NCBI GenBank assembly: GCA_049968235.1
Contig: JBMFRC010000023.1
Location: 1 to 52,411 of the forward strand
Direction of reading: 5' to 3'
DNA: 52,411 bases
Origin: Candidatus Hydrogenedens sp.
GTDB taxonomy: Bacteria > Hydrogenedentota > Hydrogenedentia > Hydrogenedentales > Hydrogenedentaceae
Positions 34,334-51,664 of this stretch are shown here, one piece after another. The notes under the pieces were generated by a model. It made no database searches. It saw only the letters and a program-made list of their open reading frames with translations, and was not told where the DNA came from. A program made the position numbers and the translations under genes. The stretch's first letter is position 1; each line of letters starts with the position of its first letter.

Positions 34334-34409
<76 letters not shown>

Positions 34410-41092: not shown

Positions 41093-41668
41093 ATGGAAGA
41101 AATTAATAAAGAAATAAAGTTAATTAATGAATGTCTGAACGGGAATGCTGAGGCATTTCGGGATTTAGTTATGACTTATCAAACAGCAGTATATGCAACT
41201 GCATTTTACTATGTGAAGAATTCAAATATAGCAAAGGAAATTGTTCAGGAAACGTTCATTAATGCATATAAGAATCTTTACCAACTCCGTGATTTAACAA
41301 AATTTGGAAGTTGGTTAAAGGAAATTACAATTCGTATTTCTTTCCAATATATCCAGAAAAAGAAAGAAATTAGTACTGATATACAAGATGAGAGAATCAT
41401 CCCGATTAATTCCCAAAAGATAACAGGAAAGGGAGTTTCTTTATCATTTGAAGAGATAAAATTTGCTATACAACAATTACCGGAAAGATACAGACTTCCT
41501 GTAGTATTAAAATACTTAGAAGGAATGACTTACGAAGAAATCAGCAGATTTACAGGAGAATCTCCGGGCGAGATTAAAGGGATATTACAAAGAGCAGTAA
41601 AACAGTTACAGCAGATATTTGATAGTAGAGATGGAGAGACAAAGCAATGGCACGATGTTCACAAATAG
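41093..41668 (+). CDS. ECF (sigma-24 type) RNA polymerase sigma factor
   Basis: Region 2 (...VYATAFYYVKNSNIAKEIVQETFINAYKN...) and region 4 (LPERYRLPVVLKYLEGMTYEEISRFTG). Confidence 0.85.
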   Translation: MEEINKEIKLINECLNGNAEAFRDLVMTYQTAVYATAFYYVKNSNIAKEIVQETFINAYKNLYQLRDLTKFGSWLKEITIRISFQYIQKKKEISTDIQDERIIPINSQKITGKGVSLSFEEIKFAIQQLPERYRLPVVLKYLEGMTYEEISRFTGESPGEIKGILQRAVKQLQQIFDSRDGETKQWHDVHK

Positions 41669-42918
41669 AGCCTGAATTACAGGCATACATTGATGGTGAA
41701 TTAAGCAGGTCTAAAGAGTTAATTGTAGAAGAGCATTTATCTGCCTGTATGCATTGTAAACAGGAATTTGAAATCTTACGGAAAAGTAACGCATATCTGT
41801 ATGAATCTCTCAGTCCCTACAAGTTAAATGAGTCGTTAGATGAACAAATAATGAAAAAACTTCCGGAGATAGATATTAGTTACAATCAAACACATCAAAT
41901 CACACTGCGAGTTAAGCATCAAGATGAAAGCCCTTATTCATTTTCCAACATATTTCCTTATCTTGCTTTGACAGCAATGACTGTTCTGGGTGTTTTTATA
42001 TTTGTAAGTTGGCCCCATCGGGAAATTTCCGAATCACAAAAAGTTGGAATAGCGATTAATATGTCAGGTAATAGTTCGATAATTAACAATAACATAAACA
42101 ACATAATGAAAGAAGAGGACCTGACACCCATTAAAACTGATAATTATATAGAGACAAAAGAAGATTCAATAGTTTATACCTATCTAAAAGGTAATTCTAT
42201 TTTGAAGTTAGCCGAAAAGACAAGAATACGAATTTTAGATGAACGAACCGTAAATTTGGAAAAAGGGAAAGTTTTATTTGATATTGGTAAAGATAAAAAA
42301 GTGTTTCGAGTGAATACCCCGCAGGGGATTGTAACAGTATTTGGCACACAATTCCAGGTAGAAGTTGATTCTACACAAATATTAACAACAGTTCATAGGG
42401 GAGAGGTGACAGTAGAAACCGCACATCAATTTGTTGTGCTAAAGCAAAATCAACAGGTTTTATTGAAAGGCAATACTTTTGCATCGGAAGTAAAAACTTG
42501 TGATTCGAATGAAATAATTGCCTGGTCTCGTAATATAGAACCTTCGGAACGAATATTACAAAAGATATCCAATATTTTCGGGAATTCCGAATCAATACTT
42601 ATAGCGACACCTGCTTCGCAAGTATTTGTAGTTCCCACACAAATGAAAGAAATTTCGAGCCTTGTATTGTTCTGGGATAAGCAAAAGATTATTAGTAATT
42701 CTAATTTTACAATTTATGCATCTGATGATGAGTTAAAACCTTTATTCCGTTATAAGTTAACGAATAACTTACTGGAATCGTTTGATGGAGAGATTAATAT
42801 CCCTATTCCCTCAGATATATCTCTCAGAAATGTAAAAATTTTACATATAGAAATAATTTCAGATGATATAGATGCATCTTCTACAATGCCATTTACAAAG
42901 GTTTATGCAAAGAATTGA
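41647..42918 (+). CDS. Anti-sigma factor, zinc-finger (HLSACMHCK) plus TM plus FecR-like periplasmic domain with a C-terminal extension
   Basis: Overlaps the sigma gene end. Zf-HC2-like HxxxCxxC. One TM (LALTAMTVLGVFIFVSW). FecR-like beta-rich block (NTPQGIVTVFGTQFQVEV). Confidence 0.75.
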   Translation: MARCSQIEPELQAYIDGELSRSKELIVEEHLSACMHCKQEFEILRKSNAYLYESLSPYKLNESLDEQIMKKLPEIDISYNQTHQITLRVKHQDESPYSFSNIFPYLALTAMTVLGVFIFVSWPHREISESQKVGIAINMSGNSSIINNNINNIMKEEDLTPIKTDNYIETKEDSIVYTYLKGNSILKLAEKTRIRILDERTVNLEKGKVLFDIGKDKKVFRVNTPQGIVTVFGTQFQVEVDSTQILTTVHRGEVTVETAHQFVVLKQNQQVLLKGNTFASEVKTCDSNEIIAWSRNIEPSERILQKISNIFGNSESILIATPASQVFVVPTQMKEISSLVLFWDKQKIISNSNFTIYASDDELKPLFRYKLTNNLLESFDGEINIPIPSDISLRNVKILHIEIISDDIDASSTMPFTKVYAKN

Positions 42919-42959
42919 TATGAATATTCGTTTTGACATAAATAGGAATAAAAATAAAG

Positions 42960-43211
42960 CCCACCCTGTCGGGAGGCATGATGAAGCAAAAAACAAAGTC
43001 AAATTTCTGCCTCACATCACTCCTTCCCCAGAAATACCTGCAGCCAAAATAACTGCTTTCATGCATGCCTCCCGCTTAGAAATATTGATTATTCTCAGTA
43101 AAGTGGGCTCGATGATATATACGGCGAAACAACTGTCTCCTCTCTCCACTCCTTCCTCAAGAGTACCAGCCTAACAAAAAAGCCGCATCGAGCCCCTTCT
43201 CTTTTTTTCGC
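42960..43211 (+). ncRNA. Candidate structured non-coding RNA or cis-regulatory leader (unknown class) ending in an intrinsic terminator
   Basis: No plausible ORF. Local GC is visibly higher than the surroundings. Nested long-range perfect complements: GGGAGGCATG at 42972-42981 with CATGCCTCCC at 43065-43074, flanking ATGAAGCA/TGCTTTCAT. GGGCTCGATG at 43105-43114 pairs with CATCGAGCCC at 43186-43195, followed by CTTCTCTTTTTTTCGC. Two CU-rich ACTCCTTCC motifs sit in predicted loops. A TTGACA -35-like hexamer lies at 42933-42938. Confidence 0.45.
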
Positions 43212-43265
43212 TTTCTTTCGTTGTTATAATAAACAAAAAAATAAAATTTCAATAGGGGAAAATAA

Positions 43266-46172
43266 TTGAAGGGATTCAATAAAAAAATCTATATTATTTC
43301 TTTAATGTGGATATATTCTTTTTCTATTTGTTCTGTGATTTATGCACAGGGCTGGACAGAAACCTATTGGGAACAACTTGAAATATATAAAGATGATTAT
43401 GGAATTCCGCATATATTTTCTAAGGATATACGTGCGTTAGGTTTCGGTTTTGGCTATGTTCAGGCTCAGGACCACTGGGAATCGATGCTTTTATCATACC
43501 GTTTAGCTAATGGAAAATTATCCGAAGTTTTAGGAGCAGGTGAGGAAGCATCCGACCGTTTCTCTATACAGGCCGGACATAGATATTATGGGATGTTAGC
43601 CTATAATAATTGTGATTCCACAACAAGAGAATTATGCGATGGTTTTGCTGAAGGAGTAAATTCATGGATTTTAGAAAATCGTGATAAGTTACCGGAATGG
43701 GTAGATGGAATACAACCCCAAGATATTTTTTCTTTATGGCATGCGTTTATTGTTTCCCTTGCTCCAATAGATATACCTAACTTTCCCAAAAGACCTCCTG
43801 GCATAAAGACAGGATTCGCCTTTTCAATAGCTTCTGAGAAAAGCAGAGCCAATACGCCCATATTTGCCTTGAGTAGTCATCAATTTTATCAGGGACCATT
43901 TCGCTGGTATGAAGCACACCTTATATGTGGAGACTATAATGTATATGGATGCACTCTCTATGGACTGCCGATACTTATACAGGGACATTCTCTCAAACAT
44001 GCATGGGCATTAACACCCAACCAATCCGATTTTGCAGATGTTTTTATAGAGAATCCTCTATCTAATTCTGCTAGGAATACCAAATCTATGTTAAATATGT
44101 CCAATAGATCAGATGAAAAATCAATGCTATTACTTCAATATATGTCTCAAAGTGATGTTTACTATGTAAAAACTCTAAATGGATTAGAACAACGATTTGT
44201 TCCTGTACATATAACATCCAGAGGTCCACTTCTGGTTGGACCGGGAAATGAATTTTTCACATGGAAAATTGGAGGCTATGAGGATATTGGGGCGTTTTTT
44301 CAATTATGGGAAATGGGGCGTAGTAGTTCGTTAGAAAAGTTCAAACAGGCAGTATATCTTCATCAACTTCCTTGTTTTCATATTTTATATATGGATAATT
44401 CAAATCAGTCTTATTATTTTTATTCAACAAAAGTAGGATTGAGAGAACCTCCTCCCGGTTTTCCTTCTGGGGAGATGGAACAGATTCGGGATATAAACTG
44501 GACAACGCCTGTTCCATCAAAGTTTTATCCTGTGGGATGGAGATATCTGGTTTCGCCAGAATTACTCCCACACATACAAAATCCTGTAACAGGTTATATG
44601 CAAATATGTGGAGGACCACCGGATTCGATAACGGATGATATAAAAATTTCTAATCAAGATTTTTCGGCAAAGTATATAAAAGATATTGAAAATGTAGTAA
44701 GTAGGAGGATAAGAAGTGTTTTAAGAACAGATAAAAGGTCTTTAAGAGAAGTACAATCTCTGTTATTAGAGGACCTATCCTGTCTGGCTGTAGAAGTAGT
44801 ACCCCGAATATTGAATATTGCGAATAGTCATGGGCAAGAACTATCTTCATTTCATCCAGATTTACCCCTTGCTGTTCAATTATTGAATAACTGGAACTTA
44901 CGGATGACAACTGAAGGTTCTGCACCTGTTGTTTTCAATCTATGGTCTCATTTTTTTAGTAAACAATCCGGGATTATTCCAAGTATCGAAATTGAACCTT
45001 TTTACTCACTAATGAATAAAAATAAAGAAATGGAAGGACCTTGTTTAGAGGCATTAGTAAACGCGGTTCGTTATCTTAAGAATAACCGAAATAGTATAAA
45101 TATAAATTGGGGAGAAGTTCACCGTTTACAAAGAGGTGCGGAAGAGTATTCATTAGGGGGTAGTGAAATAGGAGGAAGTACTTTTTTACTATCTGAAATT
45201 CCTCCTGATACAGAACGATGGGGGCAGATTACCTATGGGATTGGTTTTGCCCTTGTAGCGAAATTAGGTAATACAATTGAATCCTATTCTGTTCAACCTT
45301 TTGGGAATTCTGAGTCTGTTCAATCTATACATTATAAAGACCAATGGGATTTATTTCGTAATCGGCAAATGAAAAGAACCCGGTTTTACCCGGAAGATAT
45401 ATACCGATTTGCTGAGCAAGGTATAGGAAGACGGTTGGTCTTTATTCCACCGGGAGGTGTGGGCGAAATTCGTTGTATAAGTAGTTCGCGAATCTTTGTA
45501 TCCATGAAAGCAATGATAGAGCCTCCTATAGAAATTCCTGAAGGTATGTTTCCTTTTTCTGTATTTATAAAACCACAATGTGTTCCTAAAGAAGCAAATG
45601 TACAGTTTGCTATCAGATTATATATTCCTAATGATATATGTGCCCCAGAAAATATTTCACAACTTTCACTTTATTATTACGATGATAGTTCTGGATGGGT
45701 TCGTTCTGAAAATCAAAATTCGGACAGTATAGGTGGTTTTATTGAGGGTATTCTTGAGAGGGCTTTTCTTTTTGTAATTTTAGGACCTAAAGAAGTAGCA
45801 ATATTAAATCCTGAAGAAACATCTGTAAGGCTGGACGGAAAACAAACAAATACGATAGGTCAAGGAATATTTTCTCCGGGATTGCCCGGTGAAATACCCA
45901 CAGCATTGAAGAAAAAGGGAAACTTCTTTTTCTCTATTCAAGGAGAGCAAAAAAATAATACATTACCTAAACCCATTGATTTACCTGTAATAAGAGATAA
46001 AAACACTTCTGATCAATTAGAACAAACAAACAACGGAGATAAAATATCCGAATCCGAAAAGCAAAAAGATAACACGAATAGAACTACAGAAAAAGACAAA
46101 AAGAAAGGTAAAATCACATCAAAAGATATTCAACCTAAACAAATCAAAAAGAATTTTTCGATAAAAAAGTAA
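43266..46172 (+). CDS. Secreted penicillin-amidase (S45, Ntn-hydrolase) family protein with a long C-terminal extension and Lys-rich tail
   Basis: Signal peptide (TTG start; alternative ATG at 43305). N-terminal DDYGIPHIF...GFGYVQAQDHWESM...RLANGKLSEVLG...ASDRF and ...DGFAEGVNSWI match the S45 alpha-subunit blocks. GPFRWYEAH...GLPILIQGHS matches the beta-subunit block after a putative Ser nucleophile. The 250-aa C-terminal extension ends KDKKKGKITSKDIQPKQIKK. Confidence 0.65.
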   Translation: MKGFNKKIYIISLMWIYSFSICSVIYAQGWTETYWEQLEIYKDDYGIPHIFSKDIRALGFGFGYVQAQDHWESMLLSYRLANGKLSEVLGAGEEASDRFSIQAGHRYYGMLAYNNCDSTTRELCDGFAEGVNSWILENRDKLPEWVDGIQPQDIFSLWHAFIVSLAPIDIPNFPKRPPGIKTGFAFSIASEKSRANTPIFALSSHQFYQGPFRWYEAHLICGDYNVYGCTLYGLPILIQGHSLKHAWALTPNQSDFADVFIENPLSNSARNTKSMLNMSNRSDEKSMLLLQYMSQSDVYYVKTLNGLEQRFVPVHITSRGPLLVGPGNEFFTWKIGGYEDIGAFFQLWEMGRSSSLEKFKQAVYLHQLPCFHILYMDNSNQSYYFYSTKVGLREPPPGFPSGEMEQIRDINWTTPVPSKFYPVGWRYLVSPELLPHIQNPVTGYMQICGGPPDSITDDIKISNQDFSAKYIKDIENVVSRRIRSVLRTDKRSLREVQSLLLEDLSCLAVEVVPRILNIANSHGQELSSFHPDLPLAVQLLNNWNLRMTTEGSAPVVFNLWSHFFSKQSGIIPSIEIEPFYSLMNKNKEMEGPCLEALVNAVRYLKNNRNSININWGEVHRLQRGAEEYSLGGSEIGGSTFLLSEIPPDTERWGQITYGIGFALVAKLGNTIESYSVQPFGNSESVQSIHYKDQWDLFRNRQMKRTRFYPEDIYRFAEQGIGRRLVFIPPGGVGEIRCISSSRIFVSMKAMIEPPIEIPEGMFPFSVFIKPQCVPKEANVQFAIRLYIPNDICAPENISQLSLYYYDDSSGWVRSENQNSDSIGGFIEGILERAFLFVILGPKEVAILNPEETSVRLDGKQTNTIGQGIFSPGLPGEIPTALKKKGNFFFSIQGEQKNNTLPKPIDLPVIRDKNTSDQLEQTNNGDKISESEKQKDNTNRTTEKDKKKGKITSKDIQPKQIKKNFSIKK

Positions 46173-46181
46173 TCACCATTA

Positions 46182-48014
46182 TTATAGAATTGTTCCTAAC
46201 CATTCTTCGATAATTTTTTTATAGTCTGCCATACTTCCATCAGACTCACGATATTGTGTGACATTATTCCGTTCAGCAACTTCAAAAAAGCGTTTGGCTC
46301 GAGGTATCATTGTAGGGTCTTCATTTTTCTTCTTCAAGTCGGTATCTCTTTTTCTGGCTCTTTCCATGATTGCATAATCAATACTCAATCTTGCTACCTT
46401 TACTCGTTCTAATACCTCAGGTTTACCTGCTACTGCATTTTCTGCTTTATCAAAGAGCGTTTCTGCCTGTTTTAACATTTCAGGTGTTATATGTTTAGCA
46501 TTATTAGGACCGACCCAGAGATACATGTGGATTTCTCTTTTTTGTGTCGGTTTATGTATCAGTTGCAGGTATTCCATGATATAAGGTCCTGCCTCTTCAT
46601 AGAAAGCATCTACAAATTCACTGATTGCCAATTTATCATCATAGGCAGGGTCCCATAATAATTTAGCATTCAAATATGCGCTGAGTTCATTAAATTCTCC
46701 ATGTAAAGTTGTATATGTATCCTGTTCAAAGATGCCTGTAACATTATGCTTTACAAAAAATCGAATATTGGGTGCACGAACTTCAAGATTCGGGAAAGGA
46801 ACCAGGTAATGGCTGAAAGATGTTACATAGTCCCAAACCCATAAACGATTACATATTTGGGACCAGCCTTCTATATCTTTTACAAAATCACGATTCTGCT
46901 TAGAAACACAACTTTCTAAAGGATGAGCAAAGCAACATTCGATACTACAAAGACGAATGATAACATTGGGTTCGGGACGCATTGTTTTTGGAGGTTTCCG
47001 GGACCATTGATAGGCAAGGGTATCTATAACTTTATCTGGAAATTCATCATGCACGGCTCGAGCCACACTATTTACAAGGTATAACAAAGGACCCATTTGA
47101 GAATCTTCGGCGGTTGCTAATGCGGAACATTTCGGGCATTGACAGAAGTTATACCAGTCGTTCTGAGAAACAGAAAATACTTTTGCTCCAGGATGTTCCC
47201 GCATCCATTTTTTTACTTCCTCTGTGACTAATTGTATAACTTCTTCGTTTGTGCAACAGAGTTGTGTCTTTTCCTTGATTCTTTTTCCATCCACCATAGA
47301 GAAATACTCCGGGTGGGTATCAAAATATTTTTCCGGTGGCAAAAGTGAATTGAAAGTATGAACAAAACCATAATACACAATTTTACCTCCGTGTTTTTCT
47401 TCTAGTCGGCATGCATTTCCATTGGCACGATTACGGGCGCACCAATCTCCATCAATAAAACCATCCATTGTAAAGGGTTCGCGATATTCTAAGGGAGGGA
47501 CAAAGATTTCATTCATGGCAGGTAATGCAATGGTCTCCATCTTTGGTATTCTACTCACCGTGGATGTAAACCAGCGACAACCTAAATGGTCATCGAGAAC
47601 ACCATATACTCCGTATAAAGTACCTCTTGGGTCTCCCCCTGCGATAATAATATTGTCCTTCGTAACTCGCAGGTTATATCCTTCCTCTCCTAAATTTTCC
47701 CAATCAATTTTATAGTCAATATTTTCCAACCGTTTACTTTTTCCTAATATTATTTCCTTGCCCTGAATGGGTATGGAATCTGTAATAATGGGTAATTCTG
47801 CACCACTCATTTCTTTGATAAATCGCTGCAATTCCTCACTTGCATATCTGATAGAGGGGATACAATTTTCCGGGATAACGATACTACATTGGGGAGTGCC
47901 ATTCTTTACAATTATGAAATAATCTCCCATAATAAAAGAAGGTTTTTTAGCACAACCCGAAGATAGAATTACCAATACAATTATTGTTATCAGAAAGTTT
48001 TTTGAAAATTGCAT
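46182..48014 (-). CDS. Lipoprotein, possibly DUF4838 / glycoside-hydrolase-like (GH20/GH67-type N-domain plus barrel); function unknown
   Basis: Lipobox LSSGC. The TLYGVYGVLDDHLGCRWF block resembles the N-terminal domain of DUF4838/alpha-glucuronidase-like proteins. Assignment is by memory of the motif only. Confidence 0.35.
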   Translation of the reverse strand: MQFSKNFLITIIVLVILSSGCAKKPSFIMGDYFIIVKNGTPQCSIVIPENCIPSIRYASEELQRFIKEMSGAELPIITDSIPIQGKEIILGKSKRLENIDYKIDWENLGEEGYNLRVTKDNIIIAGGDPRGTLYGVYGVLDDHLGCRWFTSTVSRIPKMETIALPAMNEIFVPPLEYREPFTMDGFIDGDWCARNRANGNACRLEEKHGGKIVYYGFVHTFNSLLPPEKYFDTHPEYFSMVDGKRIKEKTQLCCTNEEVIQLVTEEVKKWMREHPGAKVFSVSQNDWYNFCQCPKCSALATAEDSQMGPLLYLVNSVARAVHDEFPDKVIDTLAYQWSRKPPKTMRPEPNVIIRLCSIECCFAHPLESCVSKQNRDFVKDIEGWSQICNRLWVWDYVTSFSHYLVPFPNLEVRAPNIRFFVKHNVTGIFEQDTYTTLHGEFNELSAYLNAKLLWDPAYDDKLAISEFVDAFYEEAGPYIMEYLQLIHKPTQKREIHMYLWVGPNNAKHITPEMLKQAETLFDKAENAVAGKPEVLERVKVARLSIDYAIMERARKRDTDLKKKNEDPTMIPRAKRFFEVAERNNVTQYRESDGSMADYKKIIEEWLGTIL

Positions 48015-48100: not shown

Positions 48101-51100
48101 ATGTCTATGTTTGAAAAAAAAATCTTTTGTGCTTGCTTCATTATTATCTTCTTTCTTTTAGATTATCAAGTTTATTCATTAAATTTGTTCAAAAAAGAAG
48201 ATAGAAAATCCCCTATTTATTCCTTTTCAGATTATACGACTCCTGTTATATGGGGAAAGCCATTGGAATATGGGTCATTAAAAATACTTGCCATTGCTCC
48301 TAATTACTGTTTTCTGGATTTTATAGAATTAGAAAAACGATTGGATTGTTCTGTCCAATTAATAACAACGGAAGATGCTCTCCATGTAGGTTGTGACCCG
48401 CTATGGGGTATATGGTGTAGGGAAGAACAAAAAAAGGAAAACATTATCAGACAGATTCGGGATAGTATAGAAAAAAAGTGGGATTTAATTATTATTGCAG
48501 GTATCGTGTTGGATATACTTCCAAAGGAAATTTATGAATCACTCATTACGAAAGTATCAAAAGGATGTGGTTTATTTATAATTCCGGCTATACCTTTAAT
48601 CCCCTCTTTACCTCACCCCATAGAGGAATTTATTAATACCCTTGAACCGAATACAGAACCTTCAGAACGATGGAAAAACTTATTTTCAGGTGGAAATGTT
48701 CGTGTAAACGATACAACGAATAGTATTAAAGTTATATGTGCAGAATTTAAAAAGGGGAGAATTGTTTACTCCCCGAACTATTTAAGCGGTGTAATGAATC
48801 ATGCTCTATTACCTGAAAAAGCAGTTATAGAAGAGATGAGTTATTTTGAAAATGCCTGGGCCGGTATTATTTCATTGATTTTATGGAGTAGCCAGATATC
48901 AGAGGATTGTAAAATAGTAAATATATCTGATGCTAAACCTGCTGGTCCTGTTGAAGAAGAAATTCCTCCCGAATTGCCGATAATGGCTATTAAAAATTTA
49001 AATCAATCTCTATTGGGTCCCGGAACTTATCCTTTTCTTATTGAAATAAAAAGAAACGATAAACAAAAAATTGATGAAATAAAAGTTCAAATACGTAGGG
49101 AAAATGAACTTTTTTCATATCAGCAATATGAATTTAAGCCTAATATCCAGAAAAAAGGACGAATCTTTACACAGGTAGAATTGCCGATTGGTGCTGGGAA
49201 CTATTTTTTTGATATATGGCTTCTCCGAAAGAAGAAAGTATTGGATTTTTTTACCAAACAAATTACTTTTAATTCCTGGCCTGATATTGTATCTGTAGAA
49301 CCAAATAAAAATTTTGTTTTTCCCAATGATTCTATTACTCTTAAAATTAATGTTTCCTCCAATATAATGGAAAGTAGAGAAGGAACAATTATTATTCAAG
49401 GAATTGATAATTATCCATATTTGAAAAATACAGAGGGTAATTTGGTTTGTGAGCAAAGCCAACCTATTACAGGGAAAGGGGGAGAGGTTCGAATACCACT
49501 AAACTTTGCAGACCTTTCCGGAAATTACTTAAAAATTAATATATGGGGAGCCCCTATGCGATTAACTTCATTAGGGGTAAATTATTCTACTTTGTTTTCT
49601 TACCGTTCTCTATATATCCCTATTCAAAGGAAAATATTTAAAAGAGGGTGGAAAGATATTGTTCAACTGAATAATATTCGTGAATATAATCAATTACAAA
49701 TAGCAAAATTTTTAATGGATAATTTTAATTGTGGAAACTATCTTTCTTTAGACCAGTATAAAATGCCGGGCGTTACAAAACTTTACCAGTCCTGTATTGT
49801 TCAAATGGCAGAGGAGACAGTTTCCAAAGCAACAAATAAAATCCAAAGAGAACCCTGTATAAATGATGAAAATTATCTGGATAAAGTTAAAAATAATTTA
49901 AATCAGGCGGTTACCTCTACGATTATTCCAACACCTTTCGCTATTTCATTAGGCATGAATAATTGTCTGGTTCAAACCGAAGAATGGGTTTGCTTTTGTG
50001 AGAATTGCATAAGCAAATTTATGCAGTTTCGGCATTTCAATGAATACTTAGATACAATACCTGAATTAGCTAATAAATTTGAACACGAGAATATTGAATT
50101 GTTAAGAGAGGATATTATAAACAAGAATTTTCCTGCTTATTTATCTTTTTATAAAAAGTTTATGGAAAATAGTTTTATAAATTTTGAAATAGATATAAAA
50201 AACAAATTAAAGACTTCTTTTTCTGATATTCCTATGGGATTTCGCTATTACAGTGATAAGAATACGATAAAAGATATTGATTGGATTGAATATATTAATT
50301 CTATGGATTGGGTTGTTATAGAACCAGAAGATTTTGCATATTCACTTGTCTCTTATATTAAATCAAAGGGAAAATCATTTTGGGTGTGTATAGATTTTGC
50401 CAATCCACAACAAACACCTCAGGGATTAATATGGAACTACTGGAATGCGATATTTAATCAAGCAAATGGAGTATGGCTGAAAAATATAAATGGAGATATG
50501 TATAGTTCATTGCCTATTAAATTATTCGATAAATATGGAAGTATAACACCCGAAATAAGTTCACTTTTTCATATATCTGAAAAGATTGGAGAAGGGATGA
50601 AAAATTTCATCTCTCAATTAAAACCTGATTTTAACGAGGAAGTAGGTATTTATTTGTCGACGGAAAATCTCTTTTTAACAAACAATATTCCAGAATTTAG
50701 TCATAAAAATTCTTTCACTTACTTTACGCGATTGTTAAATGGATATGGGATAAACCCAATTGTTATTACAAAAGAGGATATTTTACGAAGTAAAAATATG
50801 AAAGTTTTAATTCTACCCTGTTGTCTGTGGCTATCGGAAGAAGAGATAGAAAATTTATCCGAATTTTTAATTAATGGGACAATTATTGCAGATATTTCTC
50901 CTGGAATTATAAATAACGCAGATTTAACGAAGGAGTTACAGGATATCCTTAGTAGTCAGGATATTAATCAAGAGAAGATTAGGAATGATAATGTATATTT
51001 ATTAAATAAAAGCCTATCTAAAAAAATAGAAAATGAACCCTTAGAAAATGTGAAAAAGGAAATAAGGTTTATACAGGATATTTTAATAAGAAATAAGGTT

Positions 51101-51664
51101 CACAGTCCTTACTTGAATGAGAATGAATGGATAGATGGAAAATTTTATTCATTTAACAATAAAAGAATTATAGTCTGGTTACCTAATCTTACGCCTGTTA
51201 TTGTGAATAACGAATGTAAAATTAATTCGGAATTATTTAAATACAATAGTAAATTATGGGATGTGTTTAATGATAAAAGAATTAAAGCAGGAAAGAATAT
51301 ATCTTTAAATATACATAATTTACAGCCGTTATTTATTTGTTCTAATCCATATTTTTTAAAAGAGATGAAACTTACTGCTCCTGATGTCATAAAATCGAGT
51401 AGTCATCTGCCTGTTCAAATAGAATTAAAACAAAAAGGGAAAGAAAAAACATTTCTTGACCATTGGGTAAATATCGAATTAAAGGCAAAAGGTAATAAAA
51501 AGGAAATTACGATTAACTCTCAGATTATACAAACCAATCAAGAAGGTAAAGGGGAAACTTATATTTCTATCCCTAAAAATCAGCCTTCAGGGTGGTATGT
51601 CATAGTAGCAAAAGAAATAATAACTGGAACTACAATTGAAAAGGTGATAAAAATAAATAATTAG
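48101..51664 (+). CDS. Large (1187 aa) secreted or membrane-anchored hypothetical protein
   Basis: N-terminal hydrophobic signal/anchor. No recognised catalytic motif. Asn/Ile/Lys-rich. Confidence 0.6.
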   Translation: MSMFEKKIFCACFIIIFFLLDYQVYSLNLFKKEDRKSPIYSFSDYTTPVIWGKPLEYGSLKILAIAPNYCFLDFIELEKRLDCSVQLITTEDALHVGCDPLWGIWCREEQKKENIIRQIRDSIEKKWDLIIIAGIVLDILPKEIYESLITKVSKGCGLFIIPAIPLIPSLPHPIEEFINTLEPNTEPSERWKNLFSGGNVRVNDTTNSIKVICAEFKKGRIVYSPNYLSGVMNHALLPEKAVIEEMSYFENAWAGIISLILWSSQISEDCKIVNISDAKPAGPVEEEIPPELPIMAIKNLNQSLLGPGTYPFLIEIKRNDKQKIDEIKVQIRRENELFSYQQYEFKPNIQKKGRIFTQVELPIGAGNYFFDIWLLRKKKVLDFFTKQITFNSWPDIVSVEPNKNFVFPNDSITLKINVSSNIMESREGTIIIQGIDNYPYLKNTEGNLVCEQSQPITGKGGEVRIPLNFADLSGNYLKINIWGAPMRLTSLGVNYSTLFSYRSLYIPIQRKIFKRGWKDIVQLNNIREYNQLQIAKFLMDNFNCGNYLSLDQYKMPGVTKLYQSCIVQMAEETVSKATNKIQREPCINDENYLDKVKNNLNQAVTSTIIPTPFAISLGMNNCLVQTEEWVCFCENCISKFMQFRHFNEYLDTIPELANKFEHENIELLREDIINKNFPAYLSFYKKFMENSFINFEIDIKNKLKTSFSDIPMGFRYYSDKNTIKDIDWIEYINSMDWVVIEPEDFAYSLVSYIKSKGKSFWVCIDFANPQQTPQGLIWNYWNAIFNQANGVWLKNINGDMYSSLPIKLFDKYGSITPEISSLFHISEKIGEGMKNFISQLKPDFNEEVGIYLSTENLFLTNNIPEFSHKNSFTYFTRLLNGYGINPIVITKEDILRSKNMKVLILPCCLWLSEEEIENLSEFLINGTIIADISPGIINNADLTKELQDILSSQDINQEKIRNDNVYLLNKSLSKKIENEPLENVKKEIRFIQDILIRNKVHSPYLNENEWIDGKFYSFNNKRIIVWLPNLTPVIVNNECKINSELFKYNSKLWDVFNDKRIKAGKNISLNIHNLQPLFICSNPYFLKEMKLTAPDVIKSSSHLPVQIELKQKGKEKTFLDHWVNIELKAKGNKKEITINSQIIQTNQEGKGETYISIPKNQPSGWYVIVAKEIITGTTIEKVIKINN

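What the first reader, a model, noticed from the sequence alone, without database searches (positions are those of the whole stretch)
43266..46172. S45 penicillin-amidase-family homologue with a 250-aa C-terminal extension and a poly-Lys tail
The alpha-subunit signature blocks and the beta-subunit GP(F/Q)xWY...G(L/Y)P(I/L)xxGH(S/N) block of Ntn-hydrolase acylases (PGA, cephalosporin acylase, AHL acylases PvdQ/QuiP) are recognisable. The putative nucleophile context is S-I-A-S rather than the canonical S-N. The protein carries an extra beta-rich C-terminal domain and a Lys-rich tail (DKKKGKITSKDIQPKQIKKNFSIKK). This could be an AHL or other N-acyl-amide acylase anchored to the negatively charged cell surface. 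The family assignment is secure; the substrate is not.
Basis: partly seen in the sequence, partly recalled or inferred. Interest (0 to 1): 0.5.

Follow-up and report, generated by a model that had tools for sequence, protein, structure and literature searches.

The report
Acylase look-alike lacking its catalytic residues
This gene encodes an exported protein with the full fold of penicillin/AHL acylases but with glycine in place of both key catalytic residues and an added ZU5-like domain, so it is most likely a non-catalytic binding protein specific to the Hydrogenedentota phylum.

Summary

The losses are not a one-off. They define a monophyletic clade, mostly labelled Hydrogenedentota, of more than 90 sequences. 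Beta1 is Gly or Ala in all but five, and no member has both Ser and Asn. Canonical-length S45 genes in the same phylum keep every catalytic residue.

All clade members carry a C-terminal beta-sandwich (716-845) found nowhere else by sequence. By fold it resembles ZU5/GAIN domains. A disordered tail follows. Its Lys-richness is limited to the low-GC subclade.

Best reading: an exported, unprocessed pseudo-acylase that binds rather than cleaves, possibly in lipid scavenging (a GDPD gene lies directly downstream in 5 of 13 distant members). Residual non-canonical activity cannot be excluded.

Side finding: a conserved structured RNA, unknown to Rfam, lies just upstream.

The parts
43222..43230 (+). 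Candidate extended -10 promoter box TGTTATAAT for the S45-like gene
   Evidence: Sequence located. An ATAAT/ATAAG-like box is conserved at this place in the 10 relatives whose sequence reaches it. It lies downstream of the U-run that ends the upstream RNA. Inference only: a consensus match, with no transcript data.
43254..43259 (+). Ribosome-binding site AGGGGA, 6 nt before the TTG start
   Evidence: direct reading of the sequence.
43266..46172 (+). S45-fold pseudo-acylase gene (968 aa plus stop), TTG start
   Evidence: ORF. Pfam PF01804 E=3.2e-79. 100% identical to an NCBI 'penicillin acylase family protein' of Candidatus Hydrogenedens sp., which NCBI starts at Met14 (955 aa). Homologues keep the basic N-terminal n-region, which supports the TTG start.
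43266..43346 (+). Sec-type signal peptide, residues 1-27 (MKGFNKK / hydrophobic core / IYA|QG)
   Evidence: Read directly from the sequence. Most complete clade members have an equivalent N-terminus ending ...A-x-A|Q. No signal-peptide predictor was available, so the cleavage site is inferred.
43380..45401 (+). Complete acylase (alpha-beta-beta-alpha Ntn) body, residues 39-712
43764..43811 (+). Alpha-beta connector, residues 167-182 (PIDIPNFPKRPPGIKT). It occupies the place of the excised spacer of true acylases.
   Evidence: Fixed length of 16 residues in 44 of 45 clade members, against 5-39 in canonical relatives. Modelled as ordered, block pLDDT 84-91. That it stays uncleaved is inferred.
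43812..43817 (+). Former nucleophile position: Gly183 (beta1, Ser in true acylases) and Phe184 (beta2, Asn in true acylases)
   Evidence: PDB alignments. Column counts: canonical S in 74 of 75, clade G 37 / S 5 / A 3. 41 further diverged members: G 28 / A 13 / S 0. Seven genome loci: G or A.
44610..44612 (+). Former oxyanion-hole position: Gly449 (aligned with Asn244beta of cephalosporin acylase)
   Evidence: Alignment, residue counted by hand and offset cross-checked against 1ghd_B. Canonical N in 75 of 75; clade G in 44 of 45. G or D in 42 of 44 further members. The role of this Asn is stated in PMC6712217.
44697..44699 (+). Val478, at a column that is Arg in 74 of 75 canonical acylases and in the rest of the clade
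   Evidence: V or I in all 13 members of the query's subclade, R in the other 32. The equivalence to PGA Arg263beta rests on my own knowledge and was not tested here.
45411..45800 (+). Clade-specific C-terminal beta-sandwich, residues 716-845, with a ZU5/GAIN-like fold
45801..46169 (+). Mostly disordered, low-complexity tail, residues 846-968 (K/N-rich here)
   Evidence: pLDDT below 50 for 854-894 and 922-968. Composition and charge across the clade.
45864..45899 (+). Tail motif GIFSPGLPGEIP
   Evidence: Conserved in the subclade and in P0014/P0016 (GIFAPGMPG). Related G[FM][VI]FGP repeats occur in other members.
45918..45944 (+). Tail motif GNFFFSIQG (strand-like F-x-[FL]-x-[VIL] motif, first copy)
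   Evidence: Aligns with 'TFTFEVL', 'LFHLERH' and 'KFQFEVL' in distant members.
45963..45998 (+). Tail island LPKPIDLPVIRD, predicted to dock on the beta-sandwich
   Evidence: Block pLDDT 89 in the full model and 79 in the extension-only model, inside an otherwise disordered tail. Docking is inferred because no coordinates were available.
46146..46169 (+). C-terminal motif KKNFSIKK (second copy of the F-x-[ILF] motif)
   Evidence: [KR]NF[ST][IV][KR]K is conserved in 12 of the 13 subclade members. Related motifs at or near the C-terminus (RNFNLDLL, RMFNFEVLG, RTFKLETLE, RVFNIKRMD) occur in distant members.

Best explanation
The gene encodes an exported, single-chain pseudo-acylase. It keeps the entire S45 Ntn-hydrolase fold, but it cannot perform the family's defining chemistry.

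That chemistry is autoproteolysis at Gly|Ser, which exposes Ser1beta, followed by acyl-enzyme catalysis with an Asn oxyanion hole. Here Ser1beta is Gly183 and the oxyanion Asn is Gly449. In this subclade Asn2beta is Phe184 and a near-invariant Arg is Val478.

The polypeptide therefore most likely stays uncleaved, with the short conserved 16-residue connector permanently in place. The former active-site region, which is still among the most conserved parts of the protein, would then serve to bind a ligand rather than cleave it. The ligand is probably acylated or lipid-like.

A clade-specific ZU5/GAIN-like beta-sandwich and a disordered tail with short conserved motifs supply protein-protein or surface contacts.

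Shown: the fold, the residue losses, clade-wide conservation, monophyly, the export signal and the novelty of the extension. Inferred: the lack of processing, the binding function, and a role in scavenging lipid debris.
For: Family and fold:
- Pfam PF01804 E=3.2e-79 over the whole profile.
- AF2 pLDDT 85.9, pTM 0.86.

Loss of catalytic residues:
- Beta1 is Gly183 by the cephalosporin acylase and PvdQ alignments.
- Column counts: S in 74 of 75 canonical sequences against G 37 / A 3 / S 5 in the clade. Oxyanion Asn: 75 of 75 canonical against G in 44 of 45.
- Replicated in 7 genome loci.
- Replicated in further members from a 50%-identity library: beta1 G 28 / A 13 / S 0 in 41 with that region; oxyanion column G or D in 42 of 44.
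- No sequence seen has both Ser and Asn.
- The mechanism requiring Ser1beta and this Asn is stated in PMC6712217.
- Engineered equivalents exist in the PDB: 'Inactive S1A/N269D-cpPvdQ mutant in complex with the pyoverdine precursor' (5ubk) shows that such a double mutant still binds ligand. The PGA S1G mutant (4pem) carries the same beta1 substitution.

Not a decaying gene:
- Intact ORFs persist down to 31-38% identity.
- The clade is monophyletic.
- The active-site-proximal segments are more conserved than the domain average (entropy 0.85-1.04 against 1.60).
- Canonical-length S45 paralogues in Hydrogenedentota keep S-N/H/N/R. One MAG (SJ204) carries both forms.

Export: signal peptides are present in most complete members.

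Lipid link:
- A signal-peptide-bearing GDPD gene lies 4-10 bp downstream in L005-L008 and overlaps the stop by 4 bp in L014, in otherwise unrelated neighbourhoods. That is 5 of 13 distant loci.
- Cephalosporin acylase's glutarate-binding Arg57beta aligns with Ile238, the hydrophobic state also seen in the AHL-acylase-like relatives.
- Hydrogenedentota are described as degraders of lipids, fatty acids and glycerol from detritus (PMC10866078).
Against: - No biochemical data exist for any member.
- In MacQ, an uncleaved S1betaA mutant lost penicillin G hydrolysis but still scored positive on C8-C12 AHLs in a bioassay (PMC5566955). Loss of Ser1beta alone does not prove inactivity.
- His205 (His23beta) and many pocket-flanking residues are retained, and Arg478 is retained outside this subclade. 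An altered catalytic site is therefore conceivable.
- High conservation near the old active site may only reflect the buried core of the fold.
- The GDPD neighbour is absent from the query's own subclade and from the whole 52-kb window. The lipid-scavenging link is indirect for this gene.
- No model coordinates were available, so pocket shape and accessibility were not examined.
Confidence: 0.55

Rival explanations
1. The protein is still an amidase or esterase that works by a non-canonical mechanism. It would need neither autoproteolysis nor Ser1beta, for example by using water activated by His205 or another residue in the retained pocket.
For: The MacQ S210A (S1betaA) mutant and the spacer-shortened mutant are uncleaved yet reported active on several AHLs (PMC5566955). 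His205 is kept in 44 of 45 members and in 36 of 41 further members. The old active-site region is strongly conserved. The clade has acquired invariant or near-invariant residues, Cys124, His159 and Trp214, which could in principle form a new site.
Against: Two catalytic elements are lost together, not one: Ser1beta and the oxyanion Asn. The engineered PvdQ S1A/N269D double mutant is described as inactive in its PDB title. Beta1 drifts among G, A and S. The query's subclade has additionally lost Asn2beta and the conserved Arg. The MacQ result came from a qualitative AHL-inactivation bioassay. It is my inference that such an assay might not separate sequestration from hydrolysis.
Confidence: 0.2
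2. The nucleophile has moved one residue upstream. The conserved Ser/Thr at position -1 (Thr182 here) becomes a new N-terminal nucleophile after cleavage one bond earlier, and the two Gly substitutions make room for it.
For: Position -1 is Ser or Thr in 44 of the first 45 members and in all 7 genome loci. Both neighbouring catalytic positions became Gly, the smallest residue.
Against: In the broader sample, 6 of 41 members have A, K, L, G or R at -1 together with G or A at beta1. P0037 reads G-A-N. Those proteins have no hydroxyl residue at either position. Thr at -1 is already present in a group of the closest canonical relatives by E-value, P0046-P0053 ('T-S-N'). Its retention therefore needs no new function. 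Ser and Thr interchange freely, which is unusual for an Ntn nucleophile (my own knowledge).
Confidence: 0.05
3. The acylase body is only an inert scaffold. The function lies in the ZU5-like domain and the motif-bearing tail, for example adhesion to a partner protein, the envelope or the extracellular matrix.
For: The beta-sandwich and tail are the clade's defining gain. The sandwich is duplicated in P0031 and P0036, and HMMER reports 2 or more matched stretches in most full-length hits. ZU5 domains of ankyrin are protein-binding modules (PDB titles). The tail carries repeated short motifs typical of docking peptides.
Against: A 680-residue scaffold would not be expected to keep its former active-site segments as its most conserved parts. 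Nor would it be expected to keep invariant clade-specific residues in the body: C124 and W214 are invariant and H159 is near-invariant. Within the clade the acylase body is more conserved than the extension (entropy 1.60 against 2.11).
Confidence: 0.15
4. One reading: an active AHL or N-acyl-amide acylase with Ser187 ('S-I-A-S') as nucleophile, held at the cell surface by a polycationic tail.
For: Family homology and a signal peptide. The tail of this particular protein is mildly basic, net +8.
Against: Ser187 is beta5, not beta1. It is S/T/A in close homologues. Beta1 and the oxyanion residue are Gly. The PvdQ equivalog model scores 63.7 against a cutoff of 950. The tail is net negative and Pro-rich in most of the clade.
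Confidence: 0.03

Closest known systems
Class I cephalosporin (glutaryl-7-ACA) acylase, e.g. PDB 4e57 / 1or0 / 1keh (MEROPS S45, Pfam PF01804)
   Different: Only 20% identity. Ser1beta is Gly, Asn244beta is Gly, and the glutarate-binding Arg57beta is Ile. There is a fixed 16-residue connector where a cleavable spacer would be. About 250 extra C-terminal residues follow the acylase domain.
AHL acylases PvdQ and MacQ
   Different: It fails the NCBIfam PvdQ equivalog model (63.7 bits against a cutoff of 950). It lacks the Ser1beta on which these enzymes form their covalent acyl intermediate (PMC5566955) and the Asn that is mutated in the inactive PvdQ variant (5ubk title).
Engineered inactive acylases: PvdQ S1A/N269D (PDB 5ubk) and PGA S1G (PDB 4pem)
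   Same: They carry the same kind of substitutions that this clade carries naturally: beta1 Ser to a small residue, and loss of the oxyanion Asn. 5ubk shows that such a protein still binds its ligand (PDB titles).
   Different: Those are laboratory mutants of active enzymes. Here the state is ancestral to a whole natural clade, has been maintained by selection, and is combined with new domains.
ZU5 domains (ankyrin, UNC5, FIIND of NLRP1/CARD8) and the beta-sandwich of GAIN domains of adhesion GPCRs
   Different: There is no detectable sequence similarity: no Pfam ZU5 or GPS hit and no PDB sequence hit. There is no H-[FL]-[ST] autoproteolysis motif at the domain's C-terminal end; it ends in FVILGP (consensus YAVLGP). 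It is an exported bacterial domain fused to an acylase fold.

Membership tests
Peptidase S45 / Penicil_amidase (PF01804), as a homologous family | Significant profile match over the whole domain | tested here: met
   E=3.2e-79, 268 bits against a cutoff of 21.3; residues 39-712 match profile positions 3-673 of 675.
Peptidase S45 / Penicil_amidase (PF01804), as a homologous family | Alpha-beta-beta-alpha Ntn-hydrolase fold with alpha- and beta-regions | tested here: met
Peptidase S45, as an active Ntn hydrolase | Ser (or Thr/Cys) nucleophile at the first residue of the beta-chain | tested here: not met
   Gly183 aligns with beta1 of cephalosporin acylase and PvdQ. The column is S in 74 of 75 canonical sequences. 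In the clade it is G or A in 40 of 45, 41 of 41 and 7 of 7.
Peptidase S45, as an active Ntn hydrolase | Asn side chain forming the oxyanion hole (CA Asn244beta, N176 Asn242beta, PvdQ Asn269beta) | tested here: not met
   Gly449. The column is N in 75 of 75 canonical sequences and G in 44 of 45 in the clade. The role of this Asn is stated in PMC6712217.
Peptidase S45, as an active Ntn hydrolase | Autoproteolytic removal of a spacer to give alpha and beta chains | not testable with these tools
   Predicted absent, because the nucleophile is missing and the connector has a fixed length and is modelled as ordered. Protein chemistry is needed.
Peptidase S45, as an active Ntn hydrolase | Export to the periplasm or outside through a signal peptide | tested here: met
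   The N-terminus has a K-rich n-region, a hydrophobic core and IYA|Q. Equivalent N-termini occur in most complete clade members. This was read by eye; no predictor was run.
Bifunctional AHL acylase PvdQ (NCBIfam NF051460, equivalog) | Score at or above the curated equivalog cutoff | tested here: not met
   63.7 bits against a cutoff of 950; only residues 21-158 match.
ZU5 / GAIN-type beta-sandwich | Fold similarity of the C-terminal domain | tested here: met
ZU5 / GAIN-type beta-sandwich | Sequence-profile membership (Pfam ZU5 or GPS/GAIN models) | tested here: not met
   No Pfam family at E<=0.01 for residues 715-968. No PDB sequence hit better than E=0.2 with a profile of the domain.
ZU5 / GAIN-type beta-sandwich | Autoproteolysis motif H-[FL]-[ST] near the C-terminal end of the domain | tested here: not met
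   The domain ends in FVILGP (consensus YAVLGP), with no His-Phe/Leu-Ser/Thr there. A conserved [FY]-[ST] pair (F764-S765) lies mid-domain and is not preceded by His. Its structural equivalence to the motif could not be checked without coordinates.
Pseudoenzyme (non-catalytic homologue of an enzyme family) | Clear homology to an enzyme family, loss of residues essential for its chemistry, and maintenance by purifying selection | tested here: met
   Homology. Loss of Ser1beta and the oxyanion Asn across a monophyletic clade. Intact ORFs down to 31-38% identity, with conserved core segments. Actual lack of activity was not tested.

The most novel reading that the evidence does not exclude
This clade is a natural experiment of an S45 Ntn-hydrolase fold repurposed without its N-terminal nucleophile. 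One possibility is a dedicated receptor or chaperone for acylated lipids. It would hand substrates to partner enzymes such as the co-transcribed exported GDPD during scavenging of membrane debris, tethered through a bacterial ZU5/GAIN-like module. The other possibility is an enzyme that has evolved a second, Ntn-independent catalytic mechanism of the kind hinted at by the unexplained activity of uncleaved MacQ S1A.
Probability: 0.2. Interest if true: 0.75.

Novelty: new variant of a known kind. Interest (0 to 1): 0.55.

Why it matters
S45 acylases are defined by self-cleavage and an N-terminal serine, and they are annotated automatically as "penicillin acylase" or "AHL acylase / quorum quenching". 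This work shows that a whole phylum-level clade carries the fold without that chemistry. Such annotations, and any quorum-quenching inference drawn from them, are unsafe for these genes.

If the protein is a binding module, it would to my knowledge be the first described natural pseudoenzyme of this industrially important family. My literature searches found none. It would also provide a scaffold that binds acyl ligands without turning them over.

If it is still active, it would give an evolutionary handle on the puzzling Ser-independent activity reported for MacQ.

The fusion to a ZU5/GAIN-like sandwich adds an exported bacterial example of a fold mainly known from animal signalling proteins.

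The function remains inferred, and the clade is confined to uncultured organisms.

Tried and rejected
1. Ser187 ('S-I-A-S') as nucleophile. Rejected: it is beta5 and is not conserved.

2. Nucleophile shifted to the -1 Ser/Thr. It looked plausible in the first 45 sequences. It was then weakened by six members with no hydroxyl residue at -1 or beta1, plus P0037.

3. Lipoprotein anchoring. There is no lipobox; Cys22 is preceded by F-S-I, and the other members lack a conserved Cys.

4. Polycationic tail anchor. Rejected as a conserved feature.

5. Regulation by the adjacent ECF sigma / anti-sigma pair. The synteny holds only inside the query's subclade and is absent in distant members. No ECF-type promoter is conserved upstream. 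Left open, not supported.

6. The 100-aa ORF at 42872-43174, called as a gene in relatives. Rejected in favour of a structured RNA.

7. The upstream RNA as an RBS-sequestering leader of this gene. Its UUCCCC could pair with AGGGGAA, but the RBS is not conserved in L003/L091. A U-run and a -10 box also lie between the RNA and the gene. Not supported.

8. Rfam search of the RNA: no hit.

9. The AFDB Foldseek library was unavailable.

10. Cys124-Cys792 disulfide between the body and the sandwich. Both residues are clade-specific, but P0025 and P0027 lack Cys792 while keeping Cys124, and no coordinates were available. Left open.

11. Literature searches for an S45 pseudoenzyme found nothing. PMC1413634 and PMC2818923 are not held.
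Full report
**1. The observation**

The ORF listing gives a 968-aa ORF at 43266..46172 on the + strand, starting at TTG. AGGGGA lies 6 nt upstream. The N-terminus, MKGFNKK followed by a hydrophobic core and IYA|QG, reads as a Sec signal peptide. Homologues keep an equivalent basic n-region. The TTG start is therefore preferable to the Met14 start of the identical NCBI protein (955 aa, 'penicillin acylase family protein', Candidatus Hydrogenedens sp.).

Pfam Penicil_amidase (PF01804) matches residues 39-712 over essentially the entire profile, E=3.2e-79. The ORF, the family homology, the extra C-terminal residues and the basic tail are all real.

**2.

phmmer alignments to solved structures place beta-chain residue 1 of cephalosporin acylase (CA) and of PvdQ on Gly183, in K-T-G-F-A-F-S-I-A-S (PvdQ beta 3-76 aligns with query 185-257). 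The Ser in 'S-I-A-S' is Ser187, which is beta5.

The same alignment puts CA Asn244beta on Gly449. That Asn forms the oxyanion hole (mechanism as stated in PMC6712217).

I aligned the query with 120 homologues by MAFFT.

| Column | 75 ordinary acylases | 45 long-form sequences |
|---|---|---|
| beta1 | Ser in 74 | Gly 37, Ala 3, Ser 5 |
| Oxyanion Asn | Asn in 75 | Gly 44, Glu 1 |

The query's own subclade (P0001-P0013, 52-100% identity) has two further losses. Asn2beta is Phe in 13 of 13, and a column that is Arg in 74 of 75 canonical sequences is Val or Ile in 13 of 13. His23beta (His205) is kept.

**3. Replication and evolutionary status**

- Seven further long-form loci from species-representative genomes show Gly or Ala at beta1 and Gly or Asp at the oxyanion column.
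- Forty-four further long members from a library clustered at 50% identity were examined. Of the 41 that cover the region, beta1 is Gly in 28, Ala in 13 and Ser in none. The oxyanion column is Gly or Asp in 42 of 44.
- No sequence seen has both Ser and Asn.
- The 45-member clade is monophyletic in a neighbour-joining tree of the acylase domain.
- It is separated from ordinary acylases by a jump in E-value from 1e-145 to 1e-75.
- Source names and record titles are mostly Hydrogenedentes or Hydrogenedentota. Three are labelled FCB group, Bathyarchaeia and Nitrospiraceae; I suspect mis-binning for the last two.
- Canonical-length S45 genes from Hydrogenedentota genomes keep S-N, His, Asn and Arg and have no extension. 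One MAG (SJ204) carries both forms.

The long form is therefore a diverged paralogue, not a replacement. It is also not decaying. ORFs are intact down to 31-38% identity. The segments around the former active site are more conserved than the domain average (column entropy 0.85-1.04 against 1.60).

**4. Structure**

The stretch that corresponds to the excised spacer of true acylases is a 16-residue connector here. Its length is fixed in 44 of 45 members, against 5-39 residues in canonical relatives. It is modelled as ordered. This fits a protein that stays in one chain.

The PDB contains engineered equivalents of this natural state: a PGA S1G mutant (4pem) and an 'inactive S1A/N269D' PvdQ crystallised with its ligand (5ubk).

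**5. The C-terminal extension**

Every clade member has at least 156 residues after the acylase domain. Ordinary relatives have at most 46. The extension has three parts.

- **A beta-sandwich, residues 716-845.** It folds confidently alone (pLDDT about 95). It has no Pfam match and no sequence relative in the PDB. A profile search of 1.84 billion representatives finds only 110 hits, almost all at position 650-950 of proteins of 850-1350 aa. Six short hits that I checked are fragments that still carry the C-terminal end of Penicil_amidase. The domain is therefore exclusive to this clade.
  - Foldseek's first 17 hits are all ZU5 or GAIN (probability 0.98-1.00).
  - I call it ZU5/GAIN-like at fold level only. 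The H-[FL]-[ST] autoproteolysis motif is absent from the domain's C-terminal end.
- **A disordered, low-complexity linker.**
- **Short conserved motifs.** These are GIFSPGLPGEIP, GNFFFSIQG, an island LPKPIDLPVIRD, and the terminal KKNFSIKK. The island keeps pLDDT 79-89 with or without the acylase body, so it probably docks on the sandwich. Related F-x-[FL]-x-[VIL] and G[FM][VI]FGP motifs recur in distant members, sometimes several times.

The tail is net +6 to +14 only in the query's low-GC subclade. Elsewhere it is Pro-rich and usually net negative, down to -24. The proposed polycationic anchor is therefore not a family property.

**6. Genomic context**

Within the query's subclade the gene order is conserved:

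HtrA(-) / A24 prepilin peptidase / mannose-6-P isomerase / ECF sigma / anti-sigma (zf-HC2+FecR) / [RNA] / S45-like / DUF4838(-) / ~1190-aa protein without Pfam domains

The anti-sigma / RNA / S45-like part is also conserved in 11 further metagenomic loci.

Distant members lack this context. Instead, a GDPD (glycerophosphodiester phosphodiesterase) gene with a signal-peptide-like N-terminus lies immediately downstream on the same strand in 5 of 13 loci. The gap is 4-10 bp in L005-L008, and there is a 4-bp overlap in L014. The surrounding neighbourhoods are otherwise unrelated. BrkB-family genes follow in two others. There is no GDPD in the 52-kb window.

Published genome reconstructions describe Hydrogenedentota as degraders of lipids, fatty acids and glycerol from detritus (PMC10866078).

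**7. Mechanism**

The best-supported reading is an exported, uncleaved pseudo-acylase. Its conserved former active-site region would bind rather than hydrolyse an acylated, probably lipid-like ligand. The ZU5-like sandwich and the tail motifs would provide contacts to partners or surfaces.

- **Shown:** homology, fold, loss of the two catalytic elements, clade-wide conservation, monophyly, the export signal, and the uniqueness of the extension.
- **Inferred:** absence of processing, ligand binding, and a link to lipid scavenging.

The main caveat comes from MacQ. An uncleaved S1betaA mutant lost penicillin G hydrolysis but still scored positive on C8-C12 AHLs in a bioassay (PMC5566955). A non-canonical residual activity cannot be ruled out.

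The idea that the nucleophile moved to the conserved Ser/Thr at -1 is weakened. Six of 41 members, plus P0037, have no hydroxyl residue at -1 or at beta1. Thr at -1 is also already present in a group of the closest canonical relatives, P0046-P0053.

**8. Comparison and novelty**

As a homologous family this protein is a member of S45 / PF01804. As an active Ntn hydrolase it fails two defining features that I tested. It also fails the PvdQ equivalog model (63.7 bits against a cutoff of 950).

Full-text searches found no description of a natural S45 pseudoenzyme. Databases simply call these proteins 'penicillin acylase family protein' or 'AHL acylase PvdQ'.

I rate it a new variant of a known kind, of moderate interest. 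It corrects a systematic annotation error, offers a natural counterpart to engineered dead acylases, and carries an unexpected ZU5/GAIN-like module. Its function remains inferred.

**9. Side finding: a structured RNA upstream**

The 350 bp between the anti-sigma stop (42918) and the gene start contain DNA blocks that are better conserved than the flanking coding sequence. Across 11 distinct copies:

- Two long helices, 42970-42980 with 43064-43074 and 43105-43113 with 43187-43195, are base-paired in 100% of cells. Slid controls give 34-51%.
- Six pairs carry compensatory changes. None of 500 shuffles reaches the observed covariation score.
- Several G.U pairs fit only the + strand.
- Each helix encloses a near-invariant stretch of about 30-40 nt containing CACUCCUUCC. 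That 10-mer occurs twice in the window, against 0.03 expected by chance.
- Rfam 15 has no match.
- All 11 exact matches to the first block in metagenomes lie in this same locus, directly after an anti-sigma gene. All 10 whose contig reaches far enough also have an S45-like gene downstream.
- A U-run (43197-43208) and then TGTTATAAT (43222-43230) follow the second helix.

I therefore read it as a separately terminated sRNA or 3'-UTR element rather than as the leader of the S45-like gene. This was not tested.

Noticed in passing
window 42959-43208 (+): A conserved structured RNA candidate lies between the anti-sigma gene and the S45-like gene. It has two long helices with compensatory changes: 100% of 375 cells are paired, 6 pairs covary, and 0 of 500 shuffles reach the score. 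Each helix encloses a near-invariant 30-40-nt stretch with CACUCCUUCC. It ends in a U-run. Rfam 15 has no match. All 11 metagenomic copies of the first block lie in this same locus. The C-rich, anti-Shine-Dalgarno-like stretches suggest an sRNA that pairs with ribosome-binding sites; that is speculation.
   Followed up: partly
window 42872-43174 (+): A 100-aa ORF overlaps the RNA element, and equivalents of 85-102 aa are called as genes in relatives (L001, L002, L003, L090). The conservation pattern (paired helices, G.U pairs) points to RNA rather than protein, so the gene call is probably spurious.
   Followed up: partly
window 43266-43304 (+): The identical NCBI protein (P0001) starts at Met14 (955 aa). 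The TTG at 43266, with AGGGGA upstream, restores the basic n-region of the signal peptide that homologues share. The deposited start is probably 13 codons too short.
   Followed up: yes
L005 12567-13430; L006 12597-13526; L007 10588-11457; L008 10949-11896; L014 7205-8059: A GDPD (PF03009) gene with a signal-peptide-like N-terminus lies directly downstream of the long-form S45-like gene in 5 of 13 distant loci, in otherwise unrelated neighbourhoods. The gap is 4-10 bp, or a 4-bp overlap in L014. This looks like a conserved gene pair. It is absent from the query's subclade and from the window.
   Followed up: partly
window 48101-51664 (+) and 46182-48014 (-): An 1187-aa protein with no Pfam domain and a convergent DUF4838 / GH67N / GH20b-like protein are syntenic with the S45-like gene throughout the subclade. 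One orthologue of the large protein has a weak Glyco_hydro_42M hit. Several distant members also sit next to glycoside-hydrolase genes (GH42, melibiase, arabinofuranosidase).
   Followed up: no
window 41093-41668 and 41647-42918 (+): An ECF sigma factor and an overlapping anti-sigma factor (zf-HC2 + FecR, with about 170 C-terminal residues lacking any Pfam match) lie directly upstream. They are conserved with the RNA and the S45-like gene in all subclade loci that reach far enough.
   Followed up: partly
P0031, P0036 and most full-length hits: The clade-specific beta-sandwich is duplicated in some members. A second copy is visible at the C-terminus of P0031 and P0036, and HMMER reports 2-3 matched stretches in most long hits.
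   Followed up: no
L015 (DATKVG010000046.1) and L016 (JAACEL010000009.1): Long-form genes sit on contigs of MAGs labelled Bathyarchaeia archaeon and Nitrospiraceae bacterium. Given the otherwise strict Hydrogenedentota distribution, these are probably mis-binned contigs.
   Followed up: no
window 34337-34409 (-): One tRNA gene, the only Rfam gathering-threshold hit in the window.
   Followed up: no
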